A stretch of 33,123 bases of DNA from an uncultured virus (IMG/VR IMGVR_UViG_3300013232_000002) (IMGVR_UViG_3300013232_000002:62001-95123), one strand, 5' to 3'; shown: positions 5,062-27,246, counted from the stretch's first letter. A program made the numbers and translations. Notes: generated by a model from the letters alone, not told the origin.

Positions 5062-5114
5062 TGAAAGAAAGATATCACTGAGCAGTTTGTATCTGTGATA
5101 TAGAGGGATTGGAT

Positions 5115-11753: not shown

Positions 11754-12174
11754 GTTTACGTTGCTGATACATCTGCTCCGATTCGTAGTCAATCGCAGCA
11801 ATTCAAAAGCGCAGAAGATGGCCTTCCGTTGGAAACGAGAGGCTCTTAGTGCTATGCGAGAGTTGTCGAAGTTGGAAGTGTCTCTGAAGCGCGAGAGACA
11901 GCAATGTGATCTCGCTTACGACAAGTACCGATCACGATTGGAGGAAGTTGAATCCAAGGTGGACGATCTTCGTCTGTTGATTGAGAGATACGACAAAGCA
12001 GAGGAGGCTTTGAACAACGAGATCGAGCTATACAGGGATGTTCGAGTTCCTGGGTTGCACCTGGCGAACGAAGAGATGTGTCGGCAGATCGAAGCACTCA
12101 TCGCGCTCAACGTGGGAAAGCAAGTAGCCTTCGATCCAACAAGTGGGAAGGGTAATCATGGGATTCTTGACTAA
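11746..12174 (+). CDS. Hypothetical coiled-coil protein
   Basis: Probable ATG 11746; long heptad pattern; overlaps the portal start. Confidence 0.55.
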   Translation: MSRFTLLIHLLRFVVNRSNSKAQKMAFRWKREALSAMRELSKLEVSLKRERQQCDLAYDKYRSRLEEVESKVDDLRLLIERYDKAEEALNNEIELYRDVRVPGLHLANEEMCRQIEALIALNVGKQVAFDPTSGKGNHGILD

Positions 12175-14755
12175 GTCGATCGCATCCAACCGAGCAATCT
12201 CTCAATCTGCTCGAGAGCGAGCGTTGTACGCAAAAGCATCGGGAGGTATGGGCAGCCTGATGGCGACCGGGCCGTACGATGTATTCTCTCAGTGGAACGC
12301 TCGGTCATCCATGAACGACAGGTACACGAAGTACTCGGGTTATCTTTACTCGGCGATTCATGCAATCGCCAAGCAGGCTGCGGGACAGCCGGTTCGTGTT
12401 GGACGGACCCCAGACTCCAAGGAAGACGGAAAGTCGAGGGGATTGACGACAAAGCAGAAGACCGCGATTCGGAAGATGACCCTTCTGTCTGTGAAGCAGA
12501 AGGCAGAGAATGACGGCATCGAGGTTCTCGAAGATCATCCATTGATCAAGGCGTTGGATCACCCCAACGCAGTACAGGGTCGATGGCAGTTCGTTTATTC
12601 ATTCATGGCTAACCTCTGCCTCACAGGCTGGTCTTACGTAGTCTCCGATGCCGATGCGGAGGGCCGACCAGAGATGTGGTCGGTACCGTCGTCGTGGATA
12701 ACACCCGTCCACGACGACGGTCCTTTCTCGTCGTTCAAGATGCTTCAACCTGGGAAGCCAGCGTCGCAGGCGATTCCGTTGAAGAAGGACCAAGTCTCGT
12801 TTGCTCATCTCCCCGATCCAAGCAATCCGTTGTCGGCACTTGCACCCTCGAGTTCGCAGGATCCATCAATCCGCATCAGCGGTCATATCGACAACAGCCG
12901 AGAGAAGTTCTTCGAGAATGGAATCTTCCCAAGTGTGATCGTCACAGTGGGCAAAGACCCCATGCCCGGTGCAGAGGGAGGCGGAGTCCGGCCGAGGCTT
13001 ACCGCTGCGCAGAGAAGGCAGCTCAACGCCGTCATCCGCAAGACGATGGGAGGGGTCGCCAACTATGGGAACCCGGCGATCGTTGATGGGATGATCGAGA
13101 GCATCACCCGGTTTAGCCTGACCGATCAAGAGATGGGTTGGGACAAATCGGATGCTTCCGTTCGTGCCGCAATCTTGGGTGCGTATGGAGTCCATCCATT
13201 CATTCTGGGCAGGGAGATCAGCGTTGGTGGATGGGCGCAAGCCACCATCATTCGCCAACTGTTCTACGATAATGTGAACACCTACCTCAACTTCCTGGGT
13301 GAGGTGGTGACTGGTGTCATCGGGGGAGGACGAGAGAACAACAGACTGGCAGTCTGGTGGGAAGCCTGCGAAGCAGTAGACCCAACCCAGCAAAACTCGA
13401 TGATCCGGTTTGCGCGGCAGAACAACGACATCTCGCAAGACGAGTTCCGCAGCATCCTCGGTCTGGCTCCCGACGAGGATCGCAACCAGCAGGTGCTTGA
13501 GAAGAGCACGGTCACCCCGATCATCACGCTCTTGGACAAAGTGTCACAGGGTGGAATCGAAAACACCCAAGCGATTGCTTTGATGGAAGGGTTGGGTGTG
13601 CCCACCGACATGGCGAAGAGGATTGCTGGCCCGAAGAAGAAACCCCCTGTCCAGCCTCCCGCCGTTCCTGGTGCTCCGGGCCAGCCTCCCATCCCTCCCG
13701 GGCAGCAGCCGAAGCCGGGCCAGCCTGCCGTGCAGCAGGGGCAACCTGAAGAGGAGGAAGAAGAGATCACCACTGAGCAGGCGGCGAAGATGCTCAAGGA
13801 GGCTCTTGGAGAGCTTCGCAAGGACACATCGACACAAGCGAGGTCGGTGGCGTCGATGGTGTTGGAGATGACTGAGTCTAAGCACTTGGCGAATCAACAC
13901 AACCAGCAATCTCATGCCCATGACGGTATGGGAGAGACCAAGCGAGATGCTGACGGGAAGCTGACACTCTCCGACGGAAAGCCTCTGCCCGATCACATTC
14001 CGAAGAACATACCACCGGCGTGGAAAGAGGTGATGGTTGCAATGGATCCCAAGGCCGAGTTGCTGGTCAAGGGAAAAGATGCAAAGGGACGATACCAGAG
14101 CGTCTACTCGAAAGCACATTGGGCAGAAGCAGCAGAGTCCAAGTTTGCCCGTGCCAATGAGATCCGTGCCAAGGAAGACCAGATCCGCAAGGAGATCGAG
14201 AAGGACGCCAAGAGCAAGGATCCCAAGACTCGCGACAGCGCTGCGTGTCTTCGGTTGATTCAACACACGGGGCTTCGTCCCGGCAGTGAGAAGGACACGG
14301 GAGCCGAGAAGCAGGCCTACGGGGCCACCACCATCCAGGGAAAGCACGTGGTTGTGAAGGGAGACAAAGTACGTCTTCGGTTTGTGGGGAAGAAGGGAGT
14401 CGACCTCGACATCGAGGTGACGGATCCCGTGGTGAAAGCCGACTTGATCGCCAGGAAAAGCACCGCCGGGCCTAGCGGCAAGTTGTATAATAATACGGGG
14501 GATTCCCAGCTTCTTGCCTATGCGAAGGATCGTGACGGTGGTGGTTTCAAAGTGAAGGATTTCCGGACTGCTCGCGGGACTTCTGAGGCGGTCGAGGTGA
14601 TCAAGAAGATGAAGGCGCCGAAGACTGAGAAGGAGTACAAGAAGGCAGTGAAGGAAGTTGCAACAGCCGTGTCGAAGAAGCTGGGAAATACTCCTACTGT
14701 CGCGCAACAATCGTACATCGATGCGGCAGTGTTCTCTGTTTGGAGAATTAAGTGA
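12158..14755 (+). CDS. HK97-type portal protein fused to a C-terminal DNA topoisomerase IB domain
   Basis: Portal motifs 'YSAIHAIAKQAAG', 'HPLIKALDHPN', 'LCLTGWSY', 'FFENGIFPS', 'ILGAYGVHP', 'ISQDEFRSILGL'. After a Pro/Gln linker and His motif come TopIB motifs IPPAW, GKDAKGRYQSVY, TGLRPGSE, YGATT, FVGKKG, KDFRT, LGNTPTVAQQSYID. Confidence 0.9.
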   Translation: MGFLTKSIASNRAISQSARERALYAKASGGMGSLMATGPYDVFSQWNARSSMNDRYTKYSGYLYSAIHAIAKQAAGQPVRVGRTPDSKEDGKSRGLTTKQKTAIRKMTLLSVKQKAENDGIEVLEDHPLIKALDHPNAVQGRWQFVYSFMANLCLTGWSYVVSDADAEGRPEMWSVPSSWITPVHDDGPFSSFKMLQPGKPASQAIPLKKDQVSFAHLPDPSNPLSALAPSSSQDPSIRISGHIDNSREKFFENGIFPSVIVTVGKDPMPGAEGGGVRPRLTAAQRRQLNAVIRKTMGGVANYGNPAIVDGMIESITRFSLTDQEMGWDKSDASVRAAILGAYGVHPFILGREISVGGWAQATIIRQLFYDNVNTYLNFLGEVVTGVIGGGRENNRLAVWWEACEAVDPTQQNSMIRFARQNNDISQDEFRSILGLAPDEDRNQQVLEKSTVTPIITLLDKVSQGGIENTQAIALMEGLGVPTDMAKRIAGPKKKPPVQPPAVPGAPGQPPIPPGQQPKPGQPAVQQGQPEEEEEEITTEQAAKMLKEALGELRKDTSTQARSVASMVLEMTESKHLANQHNQQSHAHDGMGETKRDADGKLTLSDGKPLPDHIPKNIPPAWKEVMVAMDPKAELLVKGKDAKGRYQSVYSKAHWAEAAESKFARANEIRAKEDQIRKEIEKDAKSKDPKTRDSAACLRLIQHTGLRPGSEKDTGAEKQAYGATTIQGKHVVVKGDKVRLRFVGKKGVDLDIEVTDPVVKADLIARKSTAGPSGKLYNNTGDSQLLAYAKDRDGGGFKVKDFRTARGTSEAVEVIKKMKAPKTEKEYKKAVKEVATAVSKKLGNTPTVAQQSYIDAAVFSVWRIK

Positions 14756-14756
14756 G

Positions 14757-15170
14757 ATGGCGGATGATTCGCTTGCGAAACTGTTGGTTGTTGCTTCACA
14801 GGCTGTTCGTCTGAAGCAGATCGAATCTACTCGGACAATCCGCCGTGCCGTTGCTAGGGAGATTCACACCAAGCAGGCTGGCAAGACGGAGGTTTCGATT
14901 GCGAGAGTAGTCTCCAAGGAGATCGACAAGCAGGTTGACGACATCGCCAAGAAACTTGGAACTGGGTCGAAGTTGAATTCCAAGGAGAATCTGAAGAAGT
15001 GGAAGAACTCGTTGATTGACGCAGTGCTTCCCGTGCTGGCGATCAAGATGGCAGAGGCGGCGGTGGCTCAGATGATCATGGTTGGTGTGAATCCACGAAG
15101 CAAGGGTGCAAGGGTTCTCACTCAGAGGAAGCATGAGGTTGAAGATGGAAGTATTTGGACAAGAGAGTGA
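14757..15170 (+). CDS. Helical protein, possibly the detached N-terminal part of the MuF head morphogenesis protein
   Basis: Starts 1 nt after the portal stop; helical and basic; occupies the position where the MuF N-terminus normally follows the portal. Confidence 0.5.
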   Translation: MADDSLAKLLVVASQAVRLKQIESTRTIRRAVAREIHTKQAGKTEVSIARVVSKEIDKQVDDIAKKLGTGSKLNSKENLKKWKNSLIDAVLPVLAIKMAEAAVAQMIMVGVNPRSKGARVLTQRKHEVEDGSIWTRE

Positions 15171-15315
15171 TGTATTCTTCGGGGAAATCTCGGACAAGGA
15201 TCCTCCCGACTGGAGAGAAGAGCTCGAAAACGAAGAGGATCCGGATGACGAGGAGCTCGACGAAACGTCCGCGGACGTGATTGCCATGTTGGGATTCGAT
15301 CCCAAGGAAATGTGA
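15133..15315 (+). CDS. Small highly acidic protein (60 aa)
   Basis: GAGG RBS before ATG 15133; sequence PDWREELENEEDPDDEELDETSADVIAMLGFDP. Confidence 0.6.
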   Translation: MRLKMEVFGQESDVFFGEISDKDPPDWREELENEEDPDDEELDETSADVIAMLGFDPKEM

Positions 15316-15327
15316 AAGGACCGCGTC

Positions 15328-15801
15328 ATGAAAGAGGTCGAGAAACTCGAAACCCTGAAGCACTTAACGTCGGCTGCGAAGAGCCTGTGCGAAATGACCA
15401 AGCATCTGAACGGCCAGCATGACCAATCCGAGCACGGTCACGGCGGTGGTGGAGGTGGTGCTGCTGGAACCGCGAAGCCTTCCAAAGCGGAGGAGTACAA
15501 GAAGGAGACCGGATTGGATCTTCCTCCCAGGAACGCTGAGGAGAAGTGGAAGAAGTCATACGGCTTCAAGAACGCGGCTCCTGGTGATATCGCCTACATG
15601 GATCAAGGCACGAAGGACGCATACAAACTCCACATCATGAAGATTCACGAAGATGTGAAGAACGGAACACCTGGAGTCTCTGGTGTAGTGCTCGATGACT
15701 TAAACAAACCCATTCGCGACATCTCCGATTCTTCCAGATTCGAGATGAAGTGGGCTTACGACGATCAGGTCGGAGCCGTATATAAGAAGCCGAAGAAATG
15801 A
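15328..15801 (+). CDS. His-motif-tagged hypothetical protein
   Basis: AAAGGA RBS; carries KHLNGQHDQSEHGH plus a Gly linker followed by a ~110 aa domain. Confidence 0.7.
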   Translation: MKEVEKLETLKHLTSAAKSLCEMTKHLNGQHDQSEHGHGGGGGGAAGTAKPSKAEEYKKETGLDLPPRNAEEKWKKSYGFKNAAPGDIAYMDQGTKDAYKLHIMKIHEDVKNGTPGVSGVVLDDLNKPIRDISDSSRFEMKWAYDDQVGAVYKKPKK

Positions 15802-18191
15802 CTACTGCAACAGAATGGCTGCTCGATAACCCCGAAGACGTCGAAGCTCTTAGCGAGCTGCTGATGGGTGTTGAGGATCTCCCGATTCGCTTGTGGACCG
15901 AAATCCCCAAGTGGATGAAGCAGGAGATCGCCAACCAACTGAAGGTCACTTTCGAGCAGCCATACTGGGACGACATTGCCAAGACCACCCTTGGTGATGC
16001 CGAGCGGGCTCTCGAGGCTGGCTTGCAGGAGGGGTGGTCCATTCGCAAGATCGCCAGCCAGATGCGAGAGTCGTTGGGTGGGGATCGGTACGCCAAAGTA
16101 CGGGCCTTGAACATCGCGAGAACTGAGTGCCTACCTGCCGACACTGTCGTCAATGGGGCAAATGTTGAATCTGTGTACAGGAGATTTTATTCTGGGCCTT
16201 TTGTTAAAGTCATCACCAAAGCAGGTCGAGAATTCTCCGGTACCCCGAATCACCCAGTGTTGACGACTAGAGGCTGGGTTGGACTTGGCGATCTCAAGAA
16301 ATCGGATAATCTTGTTTGCTACGGATTTGGTGTCAAAAAACTTGGTTTTTCTGGACGCCCAGACATAAATCACCCACCAACCACGATCGGCGATATATTT
16401 GATTCTCTTGCGGCAATAGGGATTGGAGAGAGGAGATTCGGAAGTAATGAAGATTTCCACGGCGATGGGATGAATGGCGAGATCGATGTTTTTGCTTCCA
16501 ACGGCTTTTTGTCTTATGGGAATTATTCCCCTATCGAGCAAAGCAGAGTAGATAATGTCTTCACCGAATCCGACTTTCGCCACACTCTTCTCGTTGCCGA
16601 GGGCAATCTTCTCTCTTGTGGGATCAGCGAGTCTAGCGGCCTCGGAGTAGTTTCTCAAAGCCATTCCCGATTTTATGATGACCCTTTGTATGCTTGCCGG
16701 ATCGACACTGAGGGATTTTGCTATCGTAGGGCAGGATTCTCCATTTACATACCTCGCAACAATTTCGGAAGTACGGTCTGTGAGGTGTTTGGTGGAGGAT
16801 CGGTACCCAGTAGCGAGCATCAATCTACGGGCTTCTTTTCTACTCCTTCTCTCTACTCCGAATCTCTTACAAATTCTGAGGATGGTGTATTTGCTACATC
16901 CCATGATCTTGCTAACAGCAATGCTGCTGAGACCGGATTTGTAGAGATCGATCAACTTCAGAGTATCATCAGAATTGAATCGTGGAGTGGGCATGTTTTT
17001 AACCTTACTACTAAGGATAGGTTTTTCAGTATAGCCGATGGTGTGTTTACGGGCAACTGCGGCAACGCATTGAATGGGGCCAGGAAGGCCTCGATCAACC
17101 GCCTAGTCGAGGACGTGGGCGATGATGTACCGATGCGCTCCACGTGGCTCAGCGTCCTGGCGAATACGACCAGAGACACCCACGCCAACCTCGATGGTAC
17201 TCCATGTGACAAGGATGGGATGTGGAGGCTGGGAGGTGTGAAAATACCTTGGCCTAGTCATGTCTCATTGCCGGCGAAGGAACGCTGCAACTGCATGTGC
17301 AGTCTAACCATCGACTTCGGAATGAATGAGTCGGCAGCTCATGAAGCGATCCAGGAGTACTATGACCGAGTAGATGACTACGAAGCAAAGTCAGTCAAGC
17401 ATCTCCCTGGGCAGCATGATCAGATGTCGCATGCTCATGGAGGAAGCTCTGTCGAGCAAACTCTGCGAAGTGGTAAGTACGAATCAGAGAGGATCAACAC
17501 AGAGACTGCATCTGGTGGTTTCTTCAAGATGACCTTCGAGGACGGAACGATCGGTGTGTACAAGAGAGGTGGGGATTACGAGCCCAACATCAGGATCACC
17601 GTGGAAGCAGGAACACACTACCGACGAGAGGCCGCATTTTATGATGTGGCGAAGGTGGTGGGGAATGAGGATCTAGTTCCGGAAACGGTGGTCCGTAGGA
17701 ATGATGTGACCAACATCGAGGGATCGGTACAGAAGTTCGTCAAGGATGCGCAAGCCATCGATAATCACATCCTGATCGACAACTGGTATGGAAAGAGTAA
17801 GAAGGACATCGCTCGTGCTGCCGCACAAGACTTCGTGATGGGAAACACGGATCGTCATCAAGGCAATTGGGTACTGAGCAAGGGGAAGATCCAGTTGATC
17901 GACAACGGTTTGTCTGTTCCTGTTCGTATTTCGTCTGGGAATACGCAGAGGGAAGAATTGCGACGCATCACCGATCTCGGATTTGTGCAGCAGGCTTCGG
18001 CAAACTCTATGAGTTTGAAGTCAGTGCGAAAACAGTGGGAAGGTAAGTGGGAGGAAATCGAGAAGGTGATGAAAAGTCATGAAATCGATTACGGGGGAAT
18101 CGCGGATGCTAAGAAGCGTTACGACATGTTGATGGATCCGAAGTATAAAGACTTCTACGAGTTGACGCAGGCCTACAGAGGGAGCCTTTGA
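15798..18191 (+). CDS. MuF (SPP1 gp7-like) head morphogenesis protein with intein and C-terminal PI3K/HipA-like kinase domain
   Basis: MuF motifs 'RALNIARTE', 'WLSV...TRDTHANLDG', 'P...LPAKERCNCMC'. Kinase motifs 'GVYKRG', 'RREAAFY', 'VPETV', 'GSVQKFV', 'DFVMGNTDRHQGN', 'LIDNG'. Confidence 0.85.
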   Translation: MTTATEWLLDNPEDVEALSELLMGVEDLPIRLWTEIPKWMKQEIANQLKVTFEQPYWDDIAKTTLGDAERALEAGLQEGWSIRKIASQMRESLGGDRYAKVRALNIARTECLPADTVVNGANVESVYRRFYSGPFVKVITKAGREFSGTPNHPVLTTRGWVGLGDLKKSDNLVCYGFGVKKLGFSGRPDINHPPTTIGDIFDSLAAIGIGERRFGSNEDFHGDGMNGEIDVFASNGFLSYGNYSPIEQSRVDNVFTESDFRHTLLVAEGNLLSCGISESSGLGVVSQSHSRFYDDPLYACRIDTEGFCYRRAGFSIYIPRNNFGSTVCEVFGGGSVPSSEHQSTGFFSTPSLYSESLTNSEDGVFATSHDLANSNAAETGFVEIDQLQSIIRIESWSGHVFNLTTKDRFFSIADGVFTGNCGNALNGARKASINRLVEDVGDDVPMRSTWLSVLANTTRDTHANLDGTPCDKDGMWRLGGVKIPWPSHVSLPAKERCNCMCSLTIDFGMNESAAHEAIQEYYDRVDDYEAKSVKHLPGQHDQMSHAHGGSSVEQTLRSGKYESERINTETASGGFFKMTFEDGTIGVYKRGGDYEPNIRITVEAGTHYRREAAFYDVAKVVGNEDLVPETVVRRNDVTNIEGSVQKFVKDAQAIDNHILIDNWYGKSKKDIARAAAQDFVMGNTDRHQGNWVLSKGKIQLIDNGLSVPVRISSGNTQREELRRITDLGFVQQASANSMSLKSVRKQWEGKWEEIEKVMKSHEIDYGGIADAKKRYDMLMDPKYKDFYELTQAYRGSL
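16128..17057 (+). mobile_element. Intein (310 aa) in the MuF domain
   Basis: Block A CLPADTVV directly after ARTE; block B GTPNHPVLT; block F WSGHVFNLTT; C-terminus VFTGN followed by Cys+1. The segment looks more AT-rich than its flanks. Confidence 0.88.
16131..16994 (-). CDS. Antisense-encoded putative homing endonuclease (two HTH-like units + DUF559/Vsr-like PD-(D/E)xK nuclease) inside the intein
   Basis: HTH-like 'LIDLYKSGLSSIAVSKIMGCSKYTILRICKRFGVERR' and 'VARYVNGESCPTIAKSLSVDPASIQRVI'; nuclease 'GEDIIYSALLDRG...RQKAVGSKNIDLAIHPIAVEI...RGWWVIYVW'; SD-like TAAGGT just upstream of the ATG on the minus strand. Confidence 0.75.
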   Translation of the reverse strand: MPTPRFNSDDTLKLIDLYKSGLSSIAVSKIMGCSKYTILRICKRFGVERRSRKEARRLMLATGYRSSTKHLTDRTSEIVARYVNGESCPTIAKSLSVDPASIQRVIIKSGMALRNYSEAARLADPTREKIALGNEKSVAKVGFGEDIIYSALLDRGIIPIRQKAVGSKNIDLAIHPIAVEIFITSESPLSNPYCRKRIKYIADRGWWVIYVWASRKTKFFDTKSVANKIIRFLEIAKSNPASSRQHWVIRGTGEFSTCFGDDFNKRPRIKSPVHRFNICPIDDSVGR

Positions 18192-21100
18192 TGCGAGTGG
18201 ACTTCTATCGACTTGACGAAGTGATCGGATCCATCCGCCTCGAAGATGGTGCTCTAATTGCAGACTCTTCTGTCGAGCATGTACTGGAGTCGGAGATTTA
18301 CGTACAGGGGACGTACTCTGCAGTAAAAACCCCAAGTGCGTTTCTGGAGAACCTCTATCTCTACTATCGATCTCCATATTTCTACGCGACTAAGATGCAG
18401 GAAGGGGATGCAGTCAAAGGGACCAAGCACCTTCCTGGAGAGCACGACCAACAAGACCACGCTCATGGCAAACTACTTGCAGTAGAGAACATCGAAGAAG
18501 GTGTTGGTGAACAGACTTTGTCGTACAAGGACTTTTCCAAGTGGAAAGGTTTGCGAAAGAAGATCGCAAACCTCGCGTTGTTTGATATCCAAACAAACAA
18601 ATTTGCAGGAATCATAGGCAGGTCGGAAGATGGCAAAGTCGTATCAATAGTCAGTTTGATGGGAGTTGGAAAGGGCTCTTCGATCGAGGTTGTAGATTTT
18701 GCGACTGGAGAACCCGGGTACGGTCGAAAGATGATGGCGGCCATCTGTGCTGTGGCCAGCAAACACAAACAAGGAATCACACTAACCAGTACCGAAGAAG
18801 CCTATGGTTTCTACGAGAAGATTGGAATGACAGATGCTGGCATGAATGTCAGCCTCAAGAAGTACGAGTTCACGAAGGAGCAGGCCAAGAAGTTCGCGAA
18901 AGATAATGCGGACACAAAGGCAAAGGACGAAGAGCCTGCTAATGGTGTTTTTGCTGTGCGGGTCAAAGCGACCAAGCACCTTCCAGGGCAGCATGATCAA
19001 TCAACGCATGGGCACGGGACAGGATCCCTGTCTGGTGTGAATGTCAGCAAGTGGTCGATGAACAACTCGTCGGCGAAGAGCTCAGCCAAGAAGATTGACA
19101 CGCTCGAGAAGTTGGCCGAGGCCGAGGACTGGACCGAGATCCTCAAGGTCGCATCATCGCAGCCTCCCAAGGGCGCCAATACCTATCAAAAGGGAGTGAT
19201 TCAGGCAGCGAAGAATCTGCTTGCCCACAAGAACAACGTAGTCGTTGCTCAAGCACCTGCTAAAGACTTGAAGACGAACAACGGTCTCGTTGATGCATCT
19301 CAGTGGAAGCAGGTCGGTCCCAAGTTGGGAACGCAACCGGGCGGGAAGTTCGTCGGGGAAGATGGTAAGGAGTACTATGTAAAATACCCAGAGAACCCCG
19401 ACGTCGCTCGAAACGAGGTGATCGCCAACAAGCTATACGAGATGACCGGGGCAGGTGTACCCAAGGCCCATCTCGTAGAAGGGCCTGACGGTAAAGTCGG
19501 TGTTGCTACGGAGTGGGACAACAATGCACAGAAGGCCAACTGGGGTGATGCCAGCACAAGAGAGCTGGCAGCGAAGGATTTCGCTACGCACGCCTGGTTG
19601 GCTAACTGGGACTGTGTTGGAGCAGGCTCCGAAAATCCAATGGACAACATCCGCATCTCTAACGGCAAGGCCGTGTCTGTTGATGTGGGTGGTTCGTTGG
19701 CTTATTCGGGTCTTGGTGGCAGCAAGCCCTTTGGAAAAATCTCCAATGAATGGGATACACTACGTGACACGAGTGTCAATCCAAGCTCGGCGAAAGTCTT
19801 TTCGAAGATGACTAAGGAGCAATTGATTGAGTCATCCGAGAAGATGAATATGGTGACGCGAGCTGGCATTGAGGCCATAGTGGAAACGTACCATGCCGGT
19901 GGTGCCGATAACTACATGAAGAAACAGAATCTCATCGATACGCTGATGTATCGAAGGTTCGATGTTCTTACCAGGGGAGAAAACTTAAAGAAGCAGATTG
20001 CAGAAAAGCCGGCTCCTCCCACAACCATCACCAAGCCGGATGGTTCTTCTGCTATCAGCAAACCCGTGCCGGCAACCATTCCACCGATGGTTATGCTCGG
20101 GTCAGGAAACAACGGATCACTGAAGTCTGCTCAGAACACGGCCAACAAGATGCACGAGCTTGCATCGCAAGGGAAGTGGGCCGAGTTGGAGGCGATGAAG
20201 ACCAACCCGGACAGCAAGAGTCACTACTACAAGAAGGTACATCAGTTCAAGCAAGACCTGCTCGCTGCGAAGAATGGTGGAGCTGTTGTTGATACCAAAC
20301 CACCGGCTACTCCGAAACCAGCGGTTACTCCGAAACCAGCGAATACACCAACGATCAACACAGCGGCATTTCCAACGAAACCGACGTTCTCTTCAACCAA
20401 TCTGACGCAGGTGTCGGTCAACAACGCGGCAGTAGAGAAGGCGTTGGAGCATGCCAAGAACGGAGACGTGTTTGCTCTGAAGAATATGACCCTCCCAGGG
20501 AGTCCCAAGCTAGCAGCGTGGCATGGGTCCCTGGTGGAAAACGTAGCATCGCAGATGAATCCGCCACCTCCGGCACGACAGCTCTCTGGTTCTCTGTCCG
20601 AAATCGCCAATAAAGCGAAGGTCGTCGTCGGAAAGGATTTGCCGACGAAGGTTGGAAAGTTTCTGGTTCTGGGAGAAGCGTCTCCCATTCCTACTGACGC
20701 TGTTCAGCCTAAACAGATACGTGCTGAATGGGAAAAGGGAAAGGACTCTTACAACAAACTCAACAATGCAGAAAAAGAGGCCATCAAAGACTACACCGGT
20801 GGTTCTTTCTACAGCATGAATCATCAGCTGCGTAACTTCAAAAAACTTACACCAGACACGGAGAGTGCTTGTTCTGCATTGAAAAAAGCGTCGATACCAC
20901 TTCCAGTTGGAATGAAACTCTCTCGTGGAATACCCGTATCAGGAGTAGAGGTAGAGAATCTAAGAAACTCGGTTGGCAAAGTTCTCCAGGATCGAGGGAT
21001 CATCAGTACATCTACCGGGAGTGGTTTTAGTGGAAACGTGAAAATGACATTTGTGGCGGGTCCTGGTGCGAAGGGACTTCCTGCGAAGAGGTTCAGTCAC

Positions 21101-21235
21101 GTCACGTCGGAGAACGAGTACATTCTTCCTCCGAACTCTCGTTTCTTGGTTACGGAAGCTGCAGATAAAAATGGAACCCTCCACGTCACCATGACCATCC
21201 TGCCCTTCGAAGACTCACAATGCTGCCCACCGTGA
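18188..21235 (+). CDS. Polyvalent effector protein: small N-terminal domain, His motif, GNAT, His motif, HipA/PI3K-like kinase, helical repeats, VIP2-like ADP-ribosyltransferase
   Basis: GNAT 'GEPGYGRKMMAAI...LTSTEEAYGFYEKIGM'; kinase-like 'GTQPGGKF..EYYVK..ARNEVIANKLY..WLANWD..DNI..VDVGGSL'; ART 'AIKDYTGGSFYSMNHQLR..LSRG..ISTS..ENEYILP' (R-S-E). Confidence 0.82.
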   Translation: MMRVDFYRLDEVIGSIRLEDGALIADSSVEHVLESEIYVQGTYSAVKTPSAFLENLYLYYRSPYFYATKMQEGDAVKGTKHLPGEHDQQDHAHGKLLAVENIEEGVGEQTLSYKDFSKWKGLRKKIANLALFDIQTNKFAGIIGRSEDGKVVSIVSLMGVGKGSSIEVVDFATGEPGYGRKMMAAICAVASKHKQGITLTSTEEAYGFYEKIGMTDAGMNVSLKKYEFTKEQAKKFAKDNADTKAKDEEPANGVFAVRVKATKHLPGQHDQSTHGHGTGSLSGVNVSKWSMNNSSAKSSAKKIDTLEKLAEAEDWTEILKVASSQPPKGANTYQKGVIQAAKNLLAHKNNVVVAQAPAKDLKTNNGLVDASQWKQVGPKLGTQPGGKFVGEDGKEYYVKYPENPDVARNEVIANKLYEMTGAGVPKAHLVEGPDGKVGVATEWDNNAQKANWGDASTRELAAKDFATHAWLANWDCVGAGSENPMDNIRISNGKAVSVDVGGSLAYSGLGGSKPFGKISNEWDTLRDTSVNPSSAKVFSKMTKEQLIESSEKMNMVTRAGIEAIVETYHAGGADNYMKKQNLIDTLMYRRFDVLTRGENLKKQIAEKPAPPTTITKPDGSSAISKPVPATIPPMVMLGSGNNGSLKSAQNTANKMHELASQGKWAELEAMKTNPDSKSHYYKKVHQFKQDLLAAKNGGAVVDTKPPATPKPAVTPKPANTPTINTAAFPTKPTFSSTNLTQVSVNNAAVEKALEHAKNGDVFALKNMTLPGSPKLAAWHGSLVENVASQMNPPPPARQLSGSLSEIANKAKVVVGKDLPTKVGKFLVLGEASPIPTDAVQPKQIRAEWEKGKDSYNKLNNAEKEAIKDYTGGSFYSMNHQLRNFKKLTPDTESACSALKKASIPLPVGMKLSRGIPVSGVEVENLRNSVGKVLQDRGIISTSTGSGFSGNVKMTFVAGPGAKGLPAKRFSHVTSENEYILPPNSRFLVTEAADKNGTLHVTMTILPFEDSQCCPP

Positions 21236-23729: not shown

Positions 23730-25571
23730 GTGAAGAAGATGACAGCCAACGACAAGTTGCTCGAGGGAATTCGAAGCAGGCAGCAGAAGAAGACCGAGTT
23801 CAATTACGGGATCCTCACGGCGGACAAGTACGTTGGAACGATCCAGGAGATGCTCGGTCATCCCTTCTGCTACCGCCACTTCTCGAAGACAACTACCAGC
23901 TTCTCCGATGTCCTGGAAAAGGCATCGAGGACCCTGGTCTACGGCAACCAAGACATGGTTGTCGATGATAGTGACTTTTCGATCGAAGGCATCGAACTTC
24001 CGAAGAACTACTTGGTCGTTTTCAGGCACATCCTGACCACGCCTCGGAAAGACCGGGACGGCGACATCCTGCGTACCGAGGGCATGATTCCCGATCCCAA
24101 GATGCTGTTGCTATGGCAGCATGTTCACACCATGCCCATCGGCAAGATGCTGGCGATTCAGGAGCACAACAGCAAGGTGCTTCGGCTGGTCTCCTGCGTC
24201 GTGGACATGAATCCGCTCTGCCATGACTCGGCGGTGATGATCGAGAACAAGATGGGGCGATTCAGCCACGGCTTCCGAGCCATCAAGTTCAGCAAGGTGA
24301 AGGAATCGCCTGGAGAATCTGAGGCTGGCTACGACATCAAGGAAGCGGAGATCATGGAAGAGTCTCTGGTGTCCGTTCCGGCGAATATCGATGCCGAGCA
24401 GGAGGAAGTGCTTCTCTCGTTGGTGGAGGGAGGCAAGTTGACCAGCGCCATCATGAAGCGTGTTGGCAAGAGGATCCGTAGCAAGAGACCGATCAGCGTT
24501 CCTGTCATGGTCGATCTCAAGCTGTCAATCAACGGCCAGGAGATCAGCGATGGAAAAGAAAAGCAAGTCCAAGTCAAAGCCGGCTCACCAAAAGAAGCCC
24601 ATGAAGGTGACGACGAAGTCGGTGGACAAGGACAAGAAGGACCATCCACCGACGCGAAAGGGGTGAAGTCGATTCTTCCCTGCGGCGGTATCAACGGTTC
24701 ATGGGAGTGGGTCCGTAATTCTCTTTACAACAAGGCTGAGACGTTCCTTGTGGATAAGGGGGTCATTTCACAACGCCCAACCATCAACTCCGGCGAAGTA
24801 CCGATGGGCCGATTCGTGTGGTTGGTTTCCACCTTCCCGGATTATGCGATTGTTTGCGCGGAGAATTTCAACAATAAGCCGTCCGATACCTACTACAAGT
24901 GCTACTGGCACTTGGGCGAGAAGGCGGTTCCTGAATTCTACGGCGAGCCCAAGGAGGTTACTGTGACCGTGTCGACCGAGATCCGAGAGAAGGGCTTGCT
25001 GGATGCCGCGAAGAGTTTGTGGCAGAAGGGAAAGAAGCCCAAGAGCGACGAAGAGGAAGACGAGAAGGAGCAGGACAAGAAGCCTGCGGCTTGTCCCAAG
25101 TGCGGCAGCGAAGACATCGACGAAGACGGTGTCTGCCAGGACTGCGGATATGAGATGGACGAGAGCGAGAAGCCGGAGGACGAAGAGGACAAGAAGAAAT
25201 CCTCACTCACCGGCGACAAGCGTGGCCGCGTTCTCTCCTCCAGCAATGAGGGCCTGATCAAGGAGGCCCTGGAATACCTCGACGAGGGGCACAAGATGGA
25301 TGGTGTGCCCAAACCCTGCAAGGCCTGTATCGGCCATGCTAAGGGCAATCTCTCCACGGTCATGGGGACCTTGGGAACCAGCGATGAAGGTGAAGCCTCC
25401 TCGAAGCCGGTCGAGAAGGAAGAAGTCACCGCCGACGGAGCGGCGATTCTGTTTCTTGCGAGTTCGACACCTGCCGACCGCAAGAAGATGGAAGGCATTC
25501 TCAAGCATCTCGTCTCTATGGACGAGCAAGAGAGTGTCACCCGGCAGTACCTGGCCCTCGCGGGACAGTAG
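23730..25571 (+). CDS. HK97-family prohead protease with long C-terminal extension (Zn ribbon, scaffold-like region)
   Basis: 'DRDGDI', 'LLWQH..MPIGK', 'FSHGF', 'EESLVSVPAN'; CPKC..CQDC; 'KRGRVLSSSN'. Confidence 0.88.
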   Translation: MKKMTANDKLLEGIRSRQQKKTEFNYGILTADKYVGTIQEMLGHPFCYRHFSKTTTSFSDVLEKASRTLVYGNQDMVVDDSDFSIEGIELPKNYLVVFRHILTTPRKDRDGDILRTEGMIPDPKMLLLWQHVHTMPIGKMLAIQEHNSKVLRLVSCVVDMNPLCHDSAVMIENKMGRFSHGFRAIKFSKVKESPGESEAGYDIKEAEIMEESLVSVPANIDAEQEEVLLSLVEGGKLTSAIMKRVGKRIRSKRPISVPVMVDLKLSINGQEISDGKEKQVQVKAGSPKEAHEGDDEVGGQGQEGPSTDAKGVKSILPCGGINGSWEWVRNSLYNKAETFLVDKGVISQRPTINSGEVPMGRFVWLVSTFPDYAIVCAENFNNKPSDTYYKCYWHLGEKAVPEFYGEPKEVTVTVSTEIREKGLLDAAKSLWQKGKKPKSDEEEDEKEQDKKPAACPKCGSEDIDEDGVCQDCGYEMDESEKPEDEEDKKKSSLTGDKRGRVLSSSNEGLIKEALEYLDEGHKMDGVPKPCKACIGHAKGNLSTVMGTLGTSDEGEASSKPVEKEEVTADGAAILFLASSTPADRKKMEGILKHLVSMDEQESVTRQYLALAGQ

Positions 25572-25650: not shown

Positions 25651-27246
25651 ATGAGACTGACCAAAGCGTTGAAGAGCTGGCTCGTTGACAACAGTGGCGT
25701 TACGAAAGACGCCGCTGACAACGAGTTCAGGAAGGCGGCCGCCGAGGCGCTCGTGGCGGGCACCTTGACGGCGGAGAAGTTGGCGGAACTGACCAAGGAA
25801 GCCGACGACGAGCAGGCGAACCAGTTCAACGACCGGTTCAACAAGCTCGCCGACAGCCTCACCAAGGCCGTGGATCTCATGACCAAGAAATCGGTCGAGA
25901 CTCCCGAAGCCCCCGAGGCTCCCGAGCAGAAGGCTCCCAAGACCCCCGAGCAGAAGGGTACGTCGGAGCCCACCCGCCTCGCGAAGATGATCTCCAAGAT
26001 CGGCGGCTTCTCCGAAGACGACGACAGCACGCCGGAAGTTCGCGTGAAGTCGTCGGTCGAGGCTTACTCGACGACCAAGAGTGCTCTCCACTATCCGGAG
26101 CGCACGACCAAGAACAAGCCGCACTCGATGGCCGGCGAGCGAGTCACCGTCCACGGTCGCAGCATCGATTCCTCGTCCGACTTGGACAAGGCTCTGGCCG
26201 GTGTGTGGGCCAAGTATCAGCTGGCCTCAGTCACACCGCGAATCGCCGGCTCTCCCCACCGCGCATGGGAGTTGCTGAACGACCACGAGAAGGGCTTGCT
26301 GGTCCACCTCGCCGAGCGTTGCGAGTGGGACGCGTCGGAAGACGAGAAGCCCCGCATCGAGAAGGGCTACCGTGGGGGCATCAAGGCCCTCATCGACGAC
26401 TCCACCAGTGGTGGCTTGGAAGCCGCCCCGATCGTCTTCGACGATCTGGTGATTCAGGCCCCTCTGCTCAACGGCGAGTTGTACCCGCTGGTGACCGAGA
26501 AGGTCCTGGACCGCGGTCGCCGGATCGAGGGTGTCGCGACCCTCACCGTCACCGGATCGTGGGGTGGTGTCGATGACAGTGCGATTGCACTCTTCAACAC
26601 GACCTCGTATGTGTCGGCGTTCGACACCACGATCTACCGTTGGGAAGGTGCCGTGCGCATCGGCTTGGACTTCATGTCCGATACCCCGATCGACTTCGGC
26701 GCCCACATCACCGCGCAGTACGGTGAGAGGCTGTTGGAAGACCTCGACGATGTCATCGCCACCGGCAATGGGACGACCCAGCCGGAAGGCATCATGAACA
26801 AGTCGGGAACGACCGACGTTGCGTTCCTTGGAGCCACCTCCCTCGGGAACTACGAATCCTTGCGGTTCGGAGTCGCGAAGGCCGAGCACAAGGGCAACGC
26901 CAAAGCGTCCGCCATCTTCTGCGGAACCGAGACTTCGTACATGCGAGCCCACGCCATCCCGGTGGGTGCCTCGGATGCTCGTCGTCTCGGAGGCATGGAG
27001 TACGACAGCTACACCTGGATGCAGCGTCCGTACAAGATCAACGAGTCCCTGGACAACACGGACATCTTCTACGCCATCATGTCCCGGTACCGGATGTACC
27101 GGCGGAAGGGCTTCACCGTCCGCACTTCGACCGAGGGCGACACCCTCATCCGTGCGAACGAGATGCTGATCATGGTCATGGCCCGATACGGCGGCCAGCT
27201 CGAAAGAGGCGCGTGCGCGGCGTACACCGACGACGCTCCCGCGTAG
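25651..27246 (+). CDS. Major capsid protein, HK97 fold, with long N-terminal delta/scaffold domain
   Basis: 'IKALIDDSTSGGLEAAP', 'IATGNGTTQPEGI', 'MARYGG'; high-GC3 codon use; followed by a terminator. Confidence 0.9.
   Translation: MRLTKALKSWLVDNSGVTKDAADNEFRKAAAEALVAGTLTAEKLAELTKEADDEQANQFNDRFNKLADSLTKAVDLMTKKSVETPEAPEAPEQKAPKTPEQKGTSEPTRLAKMISKIGGFSEDDDSTPEVRVKSSVEAYSTTKSALHYPERTTKNKPHSMAGERVTVHGRSIDSSSDLDKALAGVWAKYQLASVTPRIAGSPHRAWELLNDHEKGLLVHLAERCEWDASEDEKPRIEKGYRGGIKALIDDSTSGGLEAAPIVFDDLVIQAPLLNGELYPLVTEKVLDRGRRIEGVATLTVTGSWGGVDDSAIALFNTTSYVSAFDTTIYRWEGAVRIGLDFMSDTPIDFGAHITAQYGERLLEDLDDVIATGNGTTQPEGIMNKSGTTDVAFLGATSLGNYESLRFGVAKAEHKGNAKASAIFCGTETSYMRAHAIPVGASDARRLGGMEYDSYTWMQRPYKINESLDNTDIFYAIMSRYRMYRRKGFTVRTSTEGDTLIRANEMLIMVMARYGGQLERGACAAYTDDAPA

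What the first reader, a model, noticed from the sequence alone, without database searches (positions are those of the whole stretch)
13880..21235. Five copies of a His-rich tag, each heading a different cargo: a candidate modular head-loading or maturation system for injected effectors
Seen: K-H-L-x-x-[QE]-H-[DN]-Q-x-x-H-[AG]-H occurs at 13880, 15400, 17397, 18425 and 18974, and I found it nowhere else in the window. Each copy sits at the N-terminal edge of a cargo module: TopIB (on portal), an unknown domain, a kinase (on MuF), a GNAT, and kinase+ART. Codons vary synonymously between copies, so conservation is at protein level. Established: MuF-fused toxins and polyvalent phage proteins are thought to be packaged and injected; the HK97 prohead protease cleaves its capsid protein after Lys; T4 uses a short capsid-targeting sequence. 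Inference: the motif is a capsid-targeting and/or K|H cleavage signal that releases effectors bearing an N-terminal four-His, possibly metal-binding, peptide. It may also act as a recombination joint for swapping cargo. I do not know of a described function for it.
Basis: partly seen in the sequence, partly recalled or inferred. Interest (0 to 1): 0.92.

Follow-up and report, generated by a model that had tools for sequence, protein, structure and literature searches.

The report
Header tag on phage-packaged enzyme modules
A short, almost invariant histidine-rich peptide stands in front of each enzyme module that this uncultured phage fuses to, or encodes beside, its head-assembly proteins; the same peptide heads such modules in well over a thousand proteins of other uncultured phages and seems undescribed, so it may be a general label for proteins that phages carry in the capsid and inject.

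Summary
K-H-L-x-x-[QE]-H-[DN]-Q-x-x-H-[AG]-H occurs five times (13880, 15400, 17397, 18425, 18974). It occurs nowhere else in the 95-kb phage genome, and 0 matches are expected by chance.

Each copy precedes a module:
- TopIB on the portal
- an unknown domain
- a PI3/4-kinase-like domain on an intein-split MuF
- a GNAT
- an unassigned region plus an ADP-ribosyltransferase

The core (K-H-L-x-G-Q-H-D-Q-x-[ST]-H-G) is widespread: more than 200 stretches in viral contigs, 1,321 representative proteins, and up to 19 copies per genome. It lay in the head-gene block wherever I mapped it, mostly between MuF and an S78-clan prohead protease, and never inside a Pfam match. It is almost absent from 185,579 cellular genomes.

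In six related phages the same cargo follows different upstream sequences, and the reverse. Homology breaks at the tag in 65 of 80 similar pairs, so tag plus cargo is the exchanged unit.

Best reading (0.45): a disordered cargo header that works like T4's capsid-targeting sequence. It would recruit modules into the prohead and mark where polyproteins are cut after the invariant Lys. Cleavage, packaging and metal binding are not shown.

I found no paper containing the motif. Earlier notes of this scan describe the same kind of tag on other genomes.

The parts
12143..13879 (+). Portal domain, a Pro/Gln/Glu-rich linker and a helix, upstream of tag 1 (first part of the 870-aa ORF 12143-14755)
   Evidence: Phage_portal 86.4 bits at aa 108-440; phrog_12 portal 2.5e-28
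13880..13921 (+). Tag 1 (K-H-L-A-N-Q-H-N-Q-Q-S-H-A-H). The most deviant copy: N for the 92%-conserved G, and N for D
   Evidence: conservation
13922..14755 (+). Cargo 1: type IB topoisomerase
   Evidence: Topoisom_I 96.1 bits; Top1B_N_bact 21.4 bits
15328..15399 (+). 24-aa leader of the 157-aa ORF, upstream of tag 2
15400..15441 (+). Tag 2, followed by a Gly run
15442..15801 (+). Cargo 2: unknown domain
   Evidence: No Pfam or PHROG family. No homologue of 86-275 aa. No usable Atlas hit
15798..17396 (+). MuF (SPP1 gp7-type head morphogenesis) domain, interrupted by a 310-aa intein (aa 111-420, nt 16128-17057)
   Evidence: Phage_Mu_F 27.1 bits; phrog_2468 6.9e-18; Intein_splicing 23.2 bits. The insert is absent from the relative's MuF. 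Coordinates
17397..17438 (+). Tag 3
   Evidence: Homology to the relative's MuF ends here
17439..18191 (+). Cargo 3: PI3/PI4-kinase-like domain (below Pfam cut-off)
   Evidence: PI3_PI4_kinase 25.2 bits against a 27.1 cut-off
18188..18424 (+). 79-aa leader of the 1015-aa ORF
18425..18466 (+). Tag 4
18467..18973 (+). Cargo 4: GNAT acetyltransferase
   Evidence: Acetyltransf_10 25.7 bits, over the 23.6 cut-off
18974..19015 (+). Tag 5, preceded by A-V-R-V-K-A-T
19016..21235 (+). Cargo 5: unassigned region (a possible atypical kinase, not confirmed), a Pro/Thr-rich linker and a C-terminal ADP-ribosyltransferase (about nt 20738-21166)
   Evidence: ADPrib_exo_Tox 36.2 bits; aa 277-671 match no Pfam family; weak kinase leads
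23730..25571 (+). Context: prohead serine protease (S78 family) with a long C-terminal extension. A candidate reader or cutter of the tag
   Evidence: Peptidase_S78 20.8-23.3 bits. 413 homologues with invariant His/Ser positions
25651..27246 (+). Context: HK97-fold major capsid protein with an N-terminal delta-like domain. A conserved R-V-K at aa 131-133 (nt 26041-26049) follows a variable acidic linker
   Evidence: Phage_capsid 38.8 bits. Alignment of 35 relatives

Best explanation
The motif is the core of a roughly 30-residue, intrinsically disordered 'cargo header'. It has a poorly conserved, mostly hydrophobic stretch ending in [VLI]-x-K. An almost invariant H-L-x-G-[QKR]-H-D-Q-x-[ST]-H-G follows, and then usually a Gly-rich linker.

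**Shown**
- The header stands in front of each enzyme module that these phages encode in the head-gene block. It can sit at the N-terminus of a stand-alone gene, or at each junction of portal-, MuF- or cargo-cargo fusions.
- Header plus cargo is the unit exchanged between phages.

**Inferred**
- The header works like the T4 capsid-targeting sequence. It is read by a core head-assembly component, most likely the S78-clan prohead protease or what it docks on. This loads the module into the procapsid.
- The chain is then cut at the header, most likely after the invariant Lys. Modules fused to portal, MuF or each other are thereby freed inside the head and can leave with the DNA.
- The three His, the Asp and the Gln probably form the contact, or a metal site, that makes the header recognisable in very different phages.

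In this phage the modules delivered would be a TopIB, an unknown domain, a kinase-like domain, a GNAT and an ADP-ribosyltransferase-bearing module.
For: **Real and non-random**
- 5 copies in the window against 0 expected.

**Widespread, with a fixed core**
- 216 distinct contexts.
- 1,321 representative proteins at E<=1e-3 among 1.84 billion.
- In 654 tags from 224 proteins: K(-1) 94%, G(+3) 92%, Q(+7) 100%.

**It heads cargo**
- In 30 of 61 scanned ORFs that have a Pfam match, 0 of 48 tags lie inside the best-scoring stretch. The next domain usually starts 31-60 aa downstream.
- The last tag is always followed by at least 47 aa (median 305). The median spacing between tags is 242 aa.
- In stand-alone ORFs the tag lies 9-25 aa from the start Met.

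**Head-gene context**
- In 11 records where MuF, protease and the tags could all be placed (G001, G005, G008, G009, G010, G011, G015, G018, G027, G030, G033), every listed tag but one partial match lies between the MuF and protease genes.
- G008 has 9 consecutive tagged ORFs (15 tags by the stricter search), followed by protease, scaffold and capsid genes.

**Protease link**
- Peptidase_S78 occurs in 4 of 36 records and Peptidase_S78_2 in 24 of 36. The union is 28 of 36, and 12 of the 13 records that are at least 90% complete.

**A tag on a portal fusion argues for release, not only targeting**
- Portal-tag-TopIB here.
- Portal-tag-MuF-tag-... in G026.

**A tag at the N-terminus of single-module genes argues for more than domain separation**.

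- Among 118 ORFs of this phage, the only one shared with the tagged relative G039 but missing from three tag-less relatives is a cargo protein itself.

**Lys-directed cutting is plausible here**
- The capsid protein family keeps an invariant K directly after its variable linker. It reads R-V-K in 33 of 35 sequences. Tag 5 is preceded by V-R-V-K-A-T.
- K also sits at -4 in 8 of 13 tags of this lineage, against about 8% generally.

**Precedent**
- The T4 CTS is 10 residues. It is shared by divergent internal proteins, is sufficient for packaging, and is removed by the prohead protease (PMC9026906, passages read).
Against: - Nothing here shows that any tagged protein is in a virion, is cut, or binds metal.
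- The core is the same in phages with different head machinery. One type has S78 plus a delta-domain capsid protein; another has XkdF-type S78_2 plus a separate scaffold and a different capsid family; portal families also differ. That is unexpected for a site shaped by one phage's protease or capsid.
- No capsid or scaffold protein examined carries the core.
- G026 has 12 tags but no Pfam-detectable S78/S78_2. 8 of 36 records show neither protease family, though most of those are fragments.
- Tags are accessory. Only 2 of 17 relatives of this phage have them, and 1 of the 4 that are at least 90% complete. The cultured relatives of G008 (Arthrobacter phage Laroye, capsid 59% identical) have none in the first 22 kb, which hold the head-gene block.
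- The portal copy deviates at two near-invariant positions.
- A few tags are followed only by an acidic tail, not a domain.
- The lineage-specific upstream K-[ST]-[ST]-V-like element is not general: 33 of 654 tags, 5.0% against 2.8% expected.
Confidence: 0.45

Rival explanations
1. Inter-domain cleavage site only. The tag is simply the sequence the prohead protease cuts (K|H) to break polyproteins into modules. Loading into the head depends on something else, such as fusion to portal or MuF, or the variable leaders.
For: - Tags sit at every junction of multi-module ORFs, up to 10 in a 3,023-aa protein and between nine ART domains in a 2,201-aa protein.
- The Lys is invariant.
- An S78-clan protease is found in 28 of 36 records.
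Against: - Many single-module genes carry the tag 9-25 aa from their start, where there is nothing to separate.
- 13 of 19 module families occur both as the first and as an internal module.
- The conserved part lies mainly on the C-terminal (primed) side of the Lys and is identical across different protease families.
Confidence: 0.15
2. Intrinsic metal-binding clasp or handle. The three His, Asp and Gln, spaced five apart in a flexible segment, bind Zn/Ni/Fe. This compacts, cross-links or latches the cargo inside the head, without any protein reader.
For: - The H, H, D, Q and H positions are invariant irrespective of head-protein family.
- No reader gene co-varies with tags.
- A ferritin/Dps-like gene lies beside, or fused to, the protease in 10 of 36 tag-bearing records.
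Against: - The equally conserved K, L and G are not metal ligands.
- This phage has no ferritin-like gene.
- Metal binding alone does not explain why the tag is confined to head-gene blocks and always precedes cargo.
- No metal data exist.
Confidence: 0.15
3. Ejection handle. The tag is needed after assembly. It would thread each module through the portal and tail channel, or tie it to the leaving DNA or tape-measure protein, rather than serve loading or cutting.
For: - There is one tag per module, and the segment is flexible and followed by a Gly-rich linker.
- The tag is associated with MuF, whose SPP1 homologue sits on the portal (PMC5576092, passage read).
Against: - No evidence bears on ejection.
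- The motif is not basic, so DNA binding is not suggested by composition (sequence).
- MuF is detectable in only 25 of 36 records.
Confidence: 0.1
4. Recombination joint only. The motif persists because it gives microhomology for shuffling cargo genes, and the peptide itself has no role.
For: - Homology breaks at the tag in 65 of 80 similar inter-phage pairs (48 downstream only, 17 upstream only).
- MuF homology in this lineage ends at the tag.
- Some tag pairs share exact runs of 20 nt or more, for example 6 of 120 pairs in G008.
Against: - Conservation is at the protein level. Window copies share 20-31 of 42 nt, with runs of at most 14 nt and 4-7 synonymous differences per pair.
- The median exact run in the six arrays is 9-10 nt.
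- The reading frame and strand are always kept, and the reversed control finds 0.
Confidence: 0.05

Closest known systems
Phage-type polyvalent proteins and portal- or MuF-fused effectors (Iyer, Burroughs, Anand, de Souza, Aravind 2017, PMC5512222; passages read)
   Same: - Multi-domain chains of conflict enzymes (ART, GNAT, kinases, ParB, InPase, Zeta-like) encoded among head genes.
- They are fused to portal or MuF.
- They are proposed to be packaged, processed and injected.
   Different: - That paper proposes a zincin MPTase domain as the processing device. MPTase-PolyVal was found in 0 of 36 tag-bearing records.
- My term searches of its text found no inter-domain His motif (terms: histidine, linker, cleavage, processed, repeat, boundaries, interdomain, unstructured). 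Its FTP supplements were not seen.
- Here many modules are separate small genes that keep the header.
MuF polymorphic toxins (Jamet et al. 2017, PMC5576092; abstract and passages read)
   Same: An N-terminal MuF domain with a variable C-terminal effector, in the DNA-packaging/head module.
   Different: - Those are described as exclusive to temperate phages and prophages, mainly of Firmicutes.
- The tag is nearly absent from 185,579 cellular genomes: only 2 of 36 pattern matches are credible. It is abundant in viral contigs.
- The terms motif, linker and cleavage do not occur in that paper's main text.
T4 capsid-targeting sequence (CTS) of internal proteins (review PMC9026906; passages read)
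   Same: A short leader shared by divergent cargo proteins. It combines targeting to the prohead with removal by the prohead protease, and it is portable to foreign proteins.
   Different: - The sequence is unrelated.
- The CTS is strictly N-terminal and is read by the T4 scaffolding core and gp21. The tag here also stands internally, is repeated up to 10 times in a chain, and occurs in phages with S78/XkdF-type proteases.
- Its function is untested.
Protease-processed head and ejection proteins of giant phages (SPN3US gp245; PMC10052503; passages read)
   Same: Many head proteins, portal included, carry propeptides removed at a common motif by the prohead protease.
   Different: - The motif there is short and the cut follows Glu (E-124 in the passages read).
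- The propeptides are 20-254 residues long and are not a conserved tag.
- No modular cargo arrays are described.
Junction and marker motifs of polymorphic toxins and secreted effectors (VENN of CdiA, PxxxxDPxGL of Rhs, MIX of T6SS effectors) and encapsulin cargo-loading peptides.
   Same: A short conserved motif marks the start of a variable payload. It coincides with exchange breakpoints, or serves as a loading label for an HK97-fold shell.
   Different: - The sequence and the machinery differ.
- Here the label stands in phage head-gene blocks and precedes every module, not only the last.

Membership tests
Phage-type polyvalent / portal- or MuF-fused effector proteins (Iyer et al. 2017) | Several unrelated enzymatic domains in one polypeptide, encoded among virion head genes | tested here: met
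   The 1015-aa ORF carries GNAT, an unassigned region and ART. The neighbours are portal, MuF, protease and capsid genes
Phage-type polyvalent / portal- or MuF-fused effector proteins (Iyer et al. 2017) | Fusion of effector domains to portal or MuF | tested here: met
   Portal plus Topoisom_I, and MuF plus a kinase-like domain
Phage-type polyvalent / portal- or MuF-fused effector proteins (Iyer et al. 2017) | Zincin-like MPTase domain proposed to process the chain (frequent, not obligatory) | tested here: not met
   PF18818 was found in 0 of 36 records, this genome included. SprT-like zincins occur as tagged cargo in other phages, but not in the window
Phage-type polyvalent / portal- or MuF-fused effector proteins (Iyer et al. 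2017) | Packaged in the virion and delivered to the host | not testable with these tools
   Needs virion proteomics
MuF polymorphic toxins (Jamet et al. 2017) | N-terminal MuF domain | tested here: met
   Phage_Mu_F scores 27.1 bits, under the 29.6 cut-off, because an intein splits the domain. phrog_2468 scores 6.9e-18. It is 44-51% identical to an intein-free MuF
MuF polymorphic toxins (Jamet et al. 2017) | C-terminal toxin domain with an immunity partner | tested here: inconclusive
   The C-terminal domain is only kinase-like (25.2 bits, under the cut-off). No immunity gene was looked for
MuF polymorphic toxins (Jamet et al. 2017) | Restricted to temperate phages and prophages | tested here: not met
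   The tag pattern gives 36 matches in 596 Gb of cellular genomes, and only 2 are credible. The lifestyle of this phage itself was not tested
T4-type capsid targeting sequence | Short leader shared by divergent cargo proteins | tested here: met
   The same tag stands before TopIB, GNAT, ART, Zeta toxin, Macro, ParB, DRAT, SprT-like, NUDIX, DUF3626 and others
T4-type capsid targeting sequence | Strictly N-terminal, about 10 residues, cut by the S77 protease gp21 at its own motif | tested here: not met
   Tags are also internal and repeated. The sequence is unrelated. The proteases found are S78/S78_2
T4-type capsid targeting sequence | Sufficient to load a foreign protein into the head | not testable with these tools
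   Needs a reporter experiment
Substrate site of an HK97-type (S78-clan) prohead protease | The phage encodes such a protease | tested here: met
   Window ORF 23730-25571. 28 of 36 tag-bearing records
Substrate site of an HK97-type (S78-clan) prohead protease | The same site is present at the maturation cut of capsid or scaffold proteins | tested here: inconclusive
   The capsid protein has no tag core. It keeps an invariant K (R-V-K in 33 of 35) after the variable linker, resembling V-R-V-K before tag 5. The real cut site is unknown
Pre-toxin junction motifs of polymorphic toxins | A conserved motif at which homology between variants breaks | tested here: met
   65 of 80 similar inter-phage tag pairs share one side only. 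MuF homology ends at the tag
Pre-toxin junction motifs of polymorphic toxins | Part of a secreted toxin of a bacterial secretion system | tested here: not met
   The tag lay in the phage head-gene block in every record mapped and is near-absent from cellular genomes

The most novel reading that the evidence does not exclude
The tag is a universal, portable address label. Any tailed-phage prohead with an S78-clan protease would read it through the His/Asp/Gln cluster, possibly with a metal ion. Any protein placed behind it would then be loaded, cut free after the Lys and injected. The tag would define a largely unexplored catalogue of more than a thousand injected phage effectors, many of them of unknown fold. 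It would also offer a ready-made handle for loading foreign proteins into capsids.
Probability: 0.25. Interest if true: 0.92.

Novelty: new variant of a known kind. Interest (0 to 1): 0.78.

Why it matters
**A sequence marker for injected effectors.** How tailed phages other than T4 choose which proteins go into the head and reach the host is an open question. If the tag is what selects them, it can be used to list candidate injected effectors (anti-defence and host-takeover enzymes) directly from metagenomes. That list would include domains that no family library knows: 31 of the 61 tagged ORFs scanned here had no Pfam match.

**Modular evolution of effector sets.** The finding explains how effector sets evolve in modules. 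Tag plus cargo moves as a unit between fused and separate genes, and between phages.

**A simple experiment.** It sets up a direct test with a tag-reporter fusion and cloned head genes.

**Extension of the MuF-effector theme.** It extends that theme from prophages of gut Firmicutes to viral contigs whose tag is almost absent from cellular genomes.

Tried and rejected
- **Complex prediction.** Window protease (aa 1-262, 80-row alignment) with the tag (140-row alignment): no verdict, score 0.02 against a mark of 0.32. This says nothing either way.
- **AlphaFold2 of the 42-aa tag window with 140 sequences.** Mean pLDDT 63, essentially coil. I use it only as a hint of disorder.
- **'KHL' near the protease C-terminus as an autoprocessing site.** Only 8 of 120 homologues have any KHL. 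Coincidence; rejected.
- **A general K-[ST]-[ST]-V protease site upstream of tags.** 33 of 654 tags (5.0% against 2.8% expected). It is lineage-specific at best.
- **MPTase-PolyVal as the processing enzyme.** 0 of 36 records.
- **Ferritin/Dps as an obligatory partner.** 10 of 36 records, and none in this genome.
- **A reader gene that travels with the tags.** None found among 118 ORFs.
- **Looking for cultured tag-bearing phages.** tblastn of a 50-aa tag window found nothing relevant. tblastn of a four-tag protein found only cargo-domain hits in 659 records. The nearest cultured relatives of G008 have no tag. The cultured-phage collection cannot be pattern-scanned with these tools, so absence there is not shown.
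- **Homologues of the small ORF.** None at 86-275 aa.
- **Source names and literature.**
  - No informative source names for tagged proteins.
  - Twelve motif strings occur in 0 papers.
  - Three keyword searches gave nothing on the motif.
- **P0157 (7,059 aa, 20 profile stretches).** It matches only part of the profile and has no tag by regex. Not counted.
- **Testing the second 'kinase' by fold.** Not done; only two homologues were available for an alignment.

Full report
**1. The observation**

The window is the last 33 kb of a 95,123-bp viral record with direct terminal repeats, rated complete. Its + strand carries a head-gene block:
- terminase (C-terminal part)
- several tail-like genes
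- portal
- MuF
- an S78-type prohead protease
- an HK97-fold capsid protein
- a tape-measure protein

The motif K-H-L-x-x-[QE]-H-[DN]-Q-x-x-H-[AG]-H is present at all five stated coordinates, in frame. No further copy exists in six frames of the window, even with relaxed forms. None exists in the rest of the genome either: 5 forward, 0 reverse, 0 with the reversed control. One hundred dinucleotide shuffles gave 0.00 matches.

The copies share only 20-31 of 42 nt, and the longest common run is 14 nt. Of the residues identical in any pair, 4-7 use different codons, so selection acts on the peptide.

**2. What follows each copy**

| Copy | What follows | Evidence |
|---|---|---|
| 1 | Lies between the portal and a type IB topoisomerase (96 bits) | |
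| 2 | Lies 24 aa into a 157-aa ORF; the rest matches nothing | |
| 3 | Follows a MuF domain and precedes a PI3/PI4-kinase-like region (25.2 bits, under the cut-off) | |
| 4 | Heads a GNAT (25.7 bits, over the cut-off) | |
| 5 | Heads a 750-aa stretch with an unassigned part and a C-terminal ADP-ribosyltransferase (36.2 bits) | |

The MuF domain upstream of copy 3 is split by a 310-aa intein.

**3. The motif elsewhere**

They give 216 distinct contexts. The consensus is [VLI]-x-K-H-L-x-G-Q-H-D-Q-[SK]-[TS]-H-G-[SRN]-W-A, followed by Gly-rich sequence. The 'H-[AG]-H' ending is a local peculiarity of this phage.

A profile of 140 tag windows (alignment A1) gave these results:
- 367 proteins among 8,000 scored candidates of the 5.8-billion collection. 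They are named only 'hypothetical' or 'GNAT' by their sources.
- 1,321 representatives at E<=1e-3 among 1.84 billion, of which 325 reach E<=1e-10. Single-copy proteins can hardly reach significance, so this is a lower bound.

In 224 retrieved proteins, a regex that does not demand the Lys finds 654 tags. K(-1) is 94% conserved, L(+1) 85%, G(+3) 92%, D(+6) 86% (N 11%) and Q(+7) 100%.

No Pfam or PHROG family covers the tag.

By contrast, the same DNA pattern gave 36 single matches in 596 Gb of genomes from 185,579 prokaryote species. Of those, 34 lie in short or out-of-frame ORFs without the flanking Gly residues, and only two look real. So the tag belongs to viral contigs, not to prophages. 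That also calibrates chance: roughly 6e-11 matches per base.

**4. Anatomy**

I scanned 61 of the 111 tagged ORF clusters; the 50 left out were 636-nt fragments. Thirty of the 61 have a Pfam match. None of their 48 tags lies inside the best-scoring stretch of a family, and the next domain usually begins 31-60 aa after the tag.

Cargo families following the tag include:
- ADPrib_exo_Tox, ART-PolyVal, DRAT and PARP
- Zeta_toxin
- ddrB-ParB and ParBc
- InPase
- Macro
- NUDIX
- GNAT
- Topoisom_I
- SprT-like and ATLF-like zincins
- DUF3626 and DUF7178

Further measurements:
- Tags are spaced a median of 242 aa apart (interquartile range 183-315).
- The last tag is always followed by at least 47 aa (median 305).
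- In stand-alone genes the tag sits 9-25 aa from the start Met, often after a strand-like run such as S-V-Y-V-V-V-P-V or V-I-K-F-x-P-G-L-K-P-x-L.
- AlphaFold2 on the tag alignment gives coil at pLDDT 63. This fits a linear motif rather than a folded mini-domain.

**5. Genomic context**

I searched 36 long records that carry the tag:

| Family | Records | Records at least 90% complete |
|---|---|---|
| Phage_Mu_F | 25 of 36 | 9 of 13 |
| Peptidase_S78 | 4 of 36 | 3 of 13 |
| Peptidase_S78_2 (XkdF type) | 24 of 36 | 9 of 13 |
| Either protease | 28 of 36 | 12 of 13 |
| MPTase-PolyVal | 0 of 36 | 0 of 13 |

A relaxed pattern (H-x-x-G-x-H-[DN]-Q-x-x-H) hits 35 of the 36 records. All hits lie on a single strand per record, and the reversed controls give 0. 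Up to 19 copies occur per genome.

In eleven records MuF, protease and the tags could all be placed. Every listed tag lies between the MuF and protease genes, apart from one partial match in G008.

G008 (62 kb, complete) reads as follows:
- portal, then MuF
- nine consecutive tagged ORFs covering a quarter of the genome (15 tags by the stricter regex, 16 by the looser one)
- XkdF-type protease
- ferritin-like gene
- scaffold
- capsid

Exceptions exist:
- In G028 one tagged ORF follows the protease.
- In G003 two tagged ORFs lie downstream of the protease gene and two further untagged ORFs.
- G026 has no Pfam-detectable MuF or protease. It does encode a portal-tag-MuF-like-tag-...-tag polyprotein of 1,689 aa.

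**6. The tag is accessory**
- Relatives of this phage were found through the capsid protein (35 loci, 53-78% identical). Of 17 searched, only 2 carry tags, and only 1 of the 4 that are at least 90% complete.
- A relative with a 47%-identical portal has a plain portal and an intein-free MuF with a single tag.
- Cultured Arthrobacter phages whose capsid is 57-61% identical to G008's have no tag in the first 22 kb, which hold the head-gene block.
- This genome has 118 ORFs. The only one shared with the tagged relative G039 but absent from three tag-less relatives is the 1015-aa cargo protein itself. Portal, MuF, protease and capsid are shared by all.
- So no dedicated reader gene travels with the tags. 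They must be read by core head parts, or act on their own.

**7. The tag is the exchange point**

Six related arrays (G001, G008, G009, G010, G027, G030) hold 90 tags.
- They share 19 module families. In 13 of these, the same cargo is the first module of a gene in one phage and an internal module of a fused gene in another.
- In 151 orthologous module pairs, median identity is 0.40 in the 20 aa after the tag core and 0.10 in the 20 aa before the Lys.
- Among inter-phage tag pairs with at least 50% identity on some side, 15 keep both sides, 48 keep only the cargo side and 17 keep only the upstream side. Identical leaders head different cargos, and identical cargos follow different leaders.
- In the window's own lineage, the MuF alignment with the relative stops exactly at K-H-L-x-G-Q-H-D-Q.
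- At the DNA level, tags within an array are about 70-75% identical over 48 nt. The median exact run is 9-10 nt, and a few pairs share 20 nt or more. That offers microhomology, but protein-level constraint dominates.

**8. Mechanism**

Two facts pull in complementary directions.
- Tags on portal fusions make no sense as pure targeting signals. The portal is in the head by definition, and a payload on its interior end must be cut off to leave.
- Tags 9-25 aa from the start of single-module genes make no sense as pure domain separators.

The T4 capsid-targeting sequence combines both roles. It is 10 residues long, with targeting and processing determinants side by side. It is shared by divergent internal proteins and is portable to foreign proteins (PMC9026906). 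I therefore read the tag as a cargo header of that kind, cut next to the invariant Lys by the S78-clan protease.

Weak local support for Lys-directed cutting:
- This lineage's capsid protein keeps an invariant K, as R-V-K in 33 of 35 sequences, directly after its variable linker.
- Tag 5 is preceded by V-R-V-K-A-T.
- K sits at -4 in 8 of 13 tags of the lineage, against about 8% generally.

The main difficulty is that the core is the same in phages with different proteases, scaffolds and capsid families. This points either to a very conserved reader surface, such as the protease active-site cleft, or to intrinsic chemistry, such as a His3/Asp metal site.

None of cleavage, packaging or metal binding is shown. 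I put 0.45 on the loading-plus-processing header. Lower odds go to cleavage only, a metal clasp, an ejection handle, and a recombination joint only.

**9. Comparison and novelty**

The proteins belong to the known world of phage polyvalent proteins and portal- or MuF-fused effectors (PMC5512222; PMC5576092). They differ in four respects:
- The proposed MPTase processing domain is absent.
- The tag is not linked to prophages, whereas MuF toxins were described as exclusive to temperate phages.
- Many modules are separate small genes.
- There is a conserved header, which neither paper mentions in the text I could search. I did not see their supplementary files.

Twelve motif strings occur in no paper of the library. 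Three earlier notes of this scan describe the same kind of tag on other genomes and reach similar readings. One of them suggested a protease cut site just upstream, which I tested here with mixed results.

I class the finding as a new variant of a known kind: a new, widespread header motif within phage-packaged effector systems.

Noticed in passing
window 16128-17057 (+), inside the MuF ORF 15798-18191: A 310-aa intein (Cys at the start, Asn-Cys at the end) interrupts the conserved A-R-T-E motif of the MuF domain. A relative's MuF is contiguous at this point.
   Followed up: partly
window 12143-14755 (+): The portal protein is fused through a Pro/Gln/Glu-rich linker to a type IB topoisomerase. 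TopIB also occurs as tagged cargo in other phages' chains (P0012, P0119).
   Followed up: partly
G008 6004-6501 (locus L207); also G001, G010, G027, G011, G025, G004; fused to the protease ORF in G028 and G020: A ferritin/Dps-like gene sits next to, or is fused with, the prohead protease in 10 of 36 tag-bearing records. This recalls the ferritin-like cargo of encapsulins. None occurs in this window's genome.
   Followed up: partly
window 23730-25571 (+), aa ~455-480 and the C-terminal 60 aa: After its protease domain, the protease ORF carries a Cys-x2-Cys...Cys-x2-Cys zinc-ribbon-like element; several homologues have zinc-ribbon Pfam hits. A conserved C-terminal helix ends in Q-[YF]-R-x-L-x-G across 120 homologues. 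It may be the protease's own capsid-docking tail.
   Followed up: no
window 2070-3410 (+) and 5109-8615 (+): Two ORFs lie between terminase and portal. One is a 446-aa ORF with a trypsin-like peptidase domain and collagen-like repeats. The other is a 1168-aa ORF with three Laminin_G_3 (ConA-like lectin) stretches and a CBM_4_9 module. They are probably fibre or receptor-binding proteins placed unusually, upstream of the portal.
   Followed up: no
protein P0131 (2,201 aa): One chain holds nine ADP-ribosyltransferase domains, with tags between them (7 by regex, 9 by profile).
   Followed up: partly
G026 58570-63636 (locus L251 8571-13637): Portal and a MuF-like domain are encoded as one 1,689-aa polyprotein with three tags at the junctions. 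This complete 112-kb genome has no Pfam-detectable S78-clan protease.
   Followed up: partly
G008 41109-41141 (-), ORF next to the terminase gene: A partial tag (H-G-G-G-S-H-D-Q-S-S-H, without K-H-L) lies outside the cargo array.
   Followed up: no
loci L212 and L242 (MAG contigs from the genome collection): These are the only two credible tags in cellular-genome records. Both end in H-D-P-T-K-G instead of H-G-x-W-A. A similar H-D-P-T ending (without K-G) is seen in G003.
   Followed up: no
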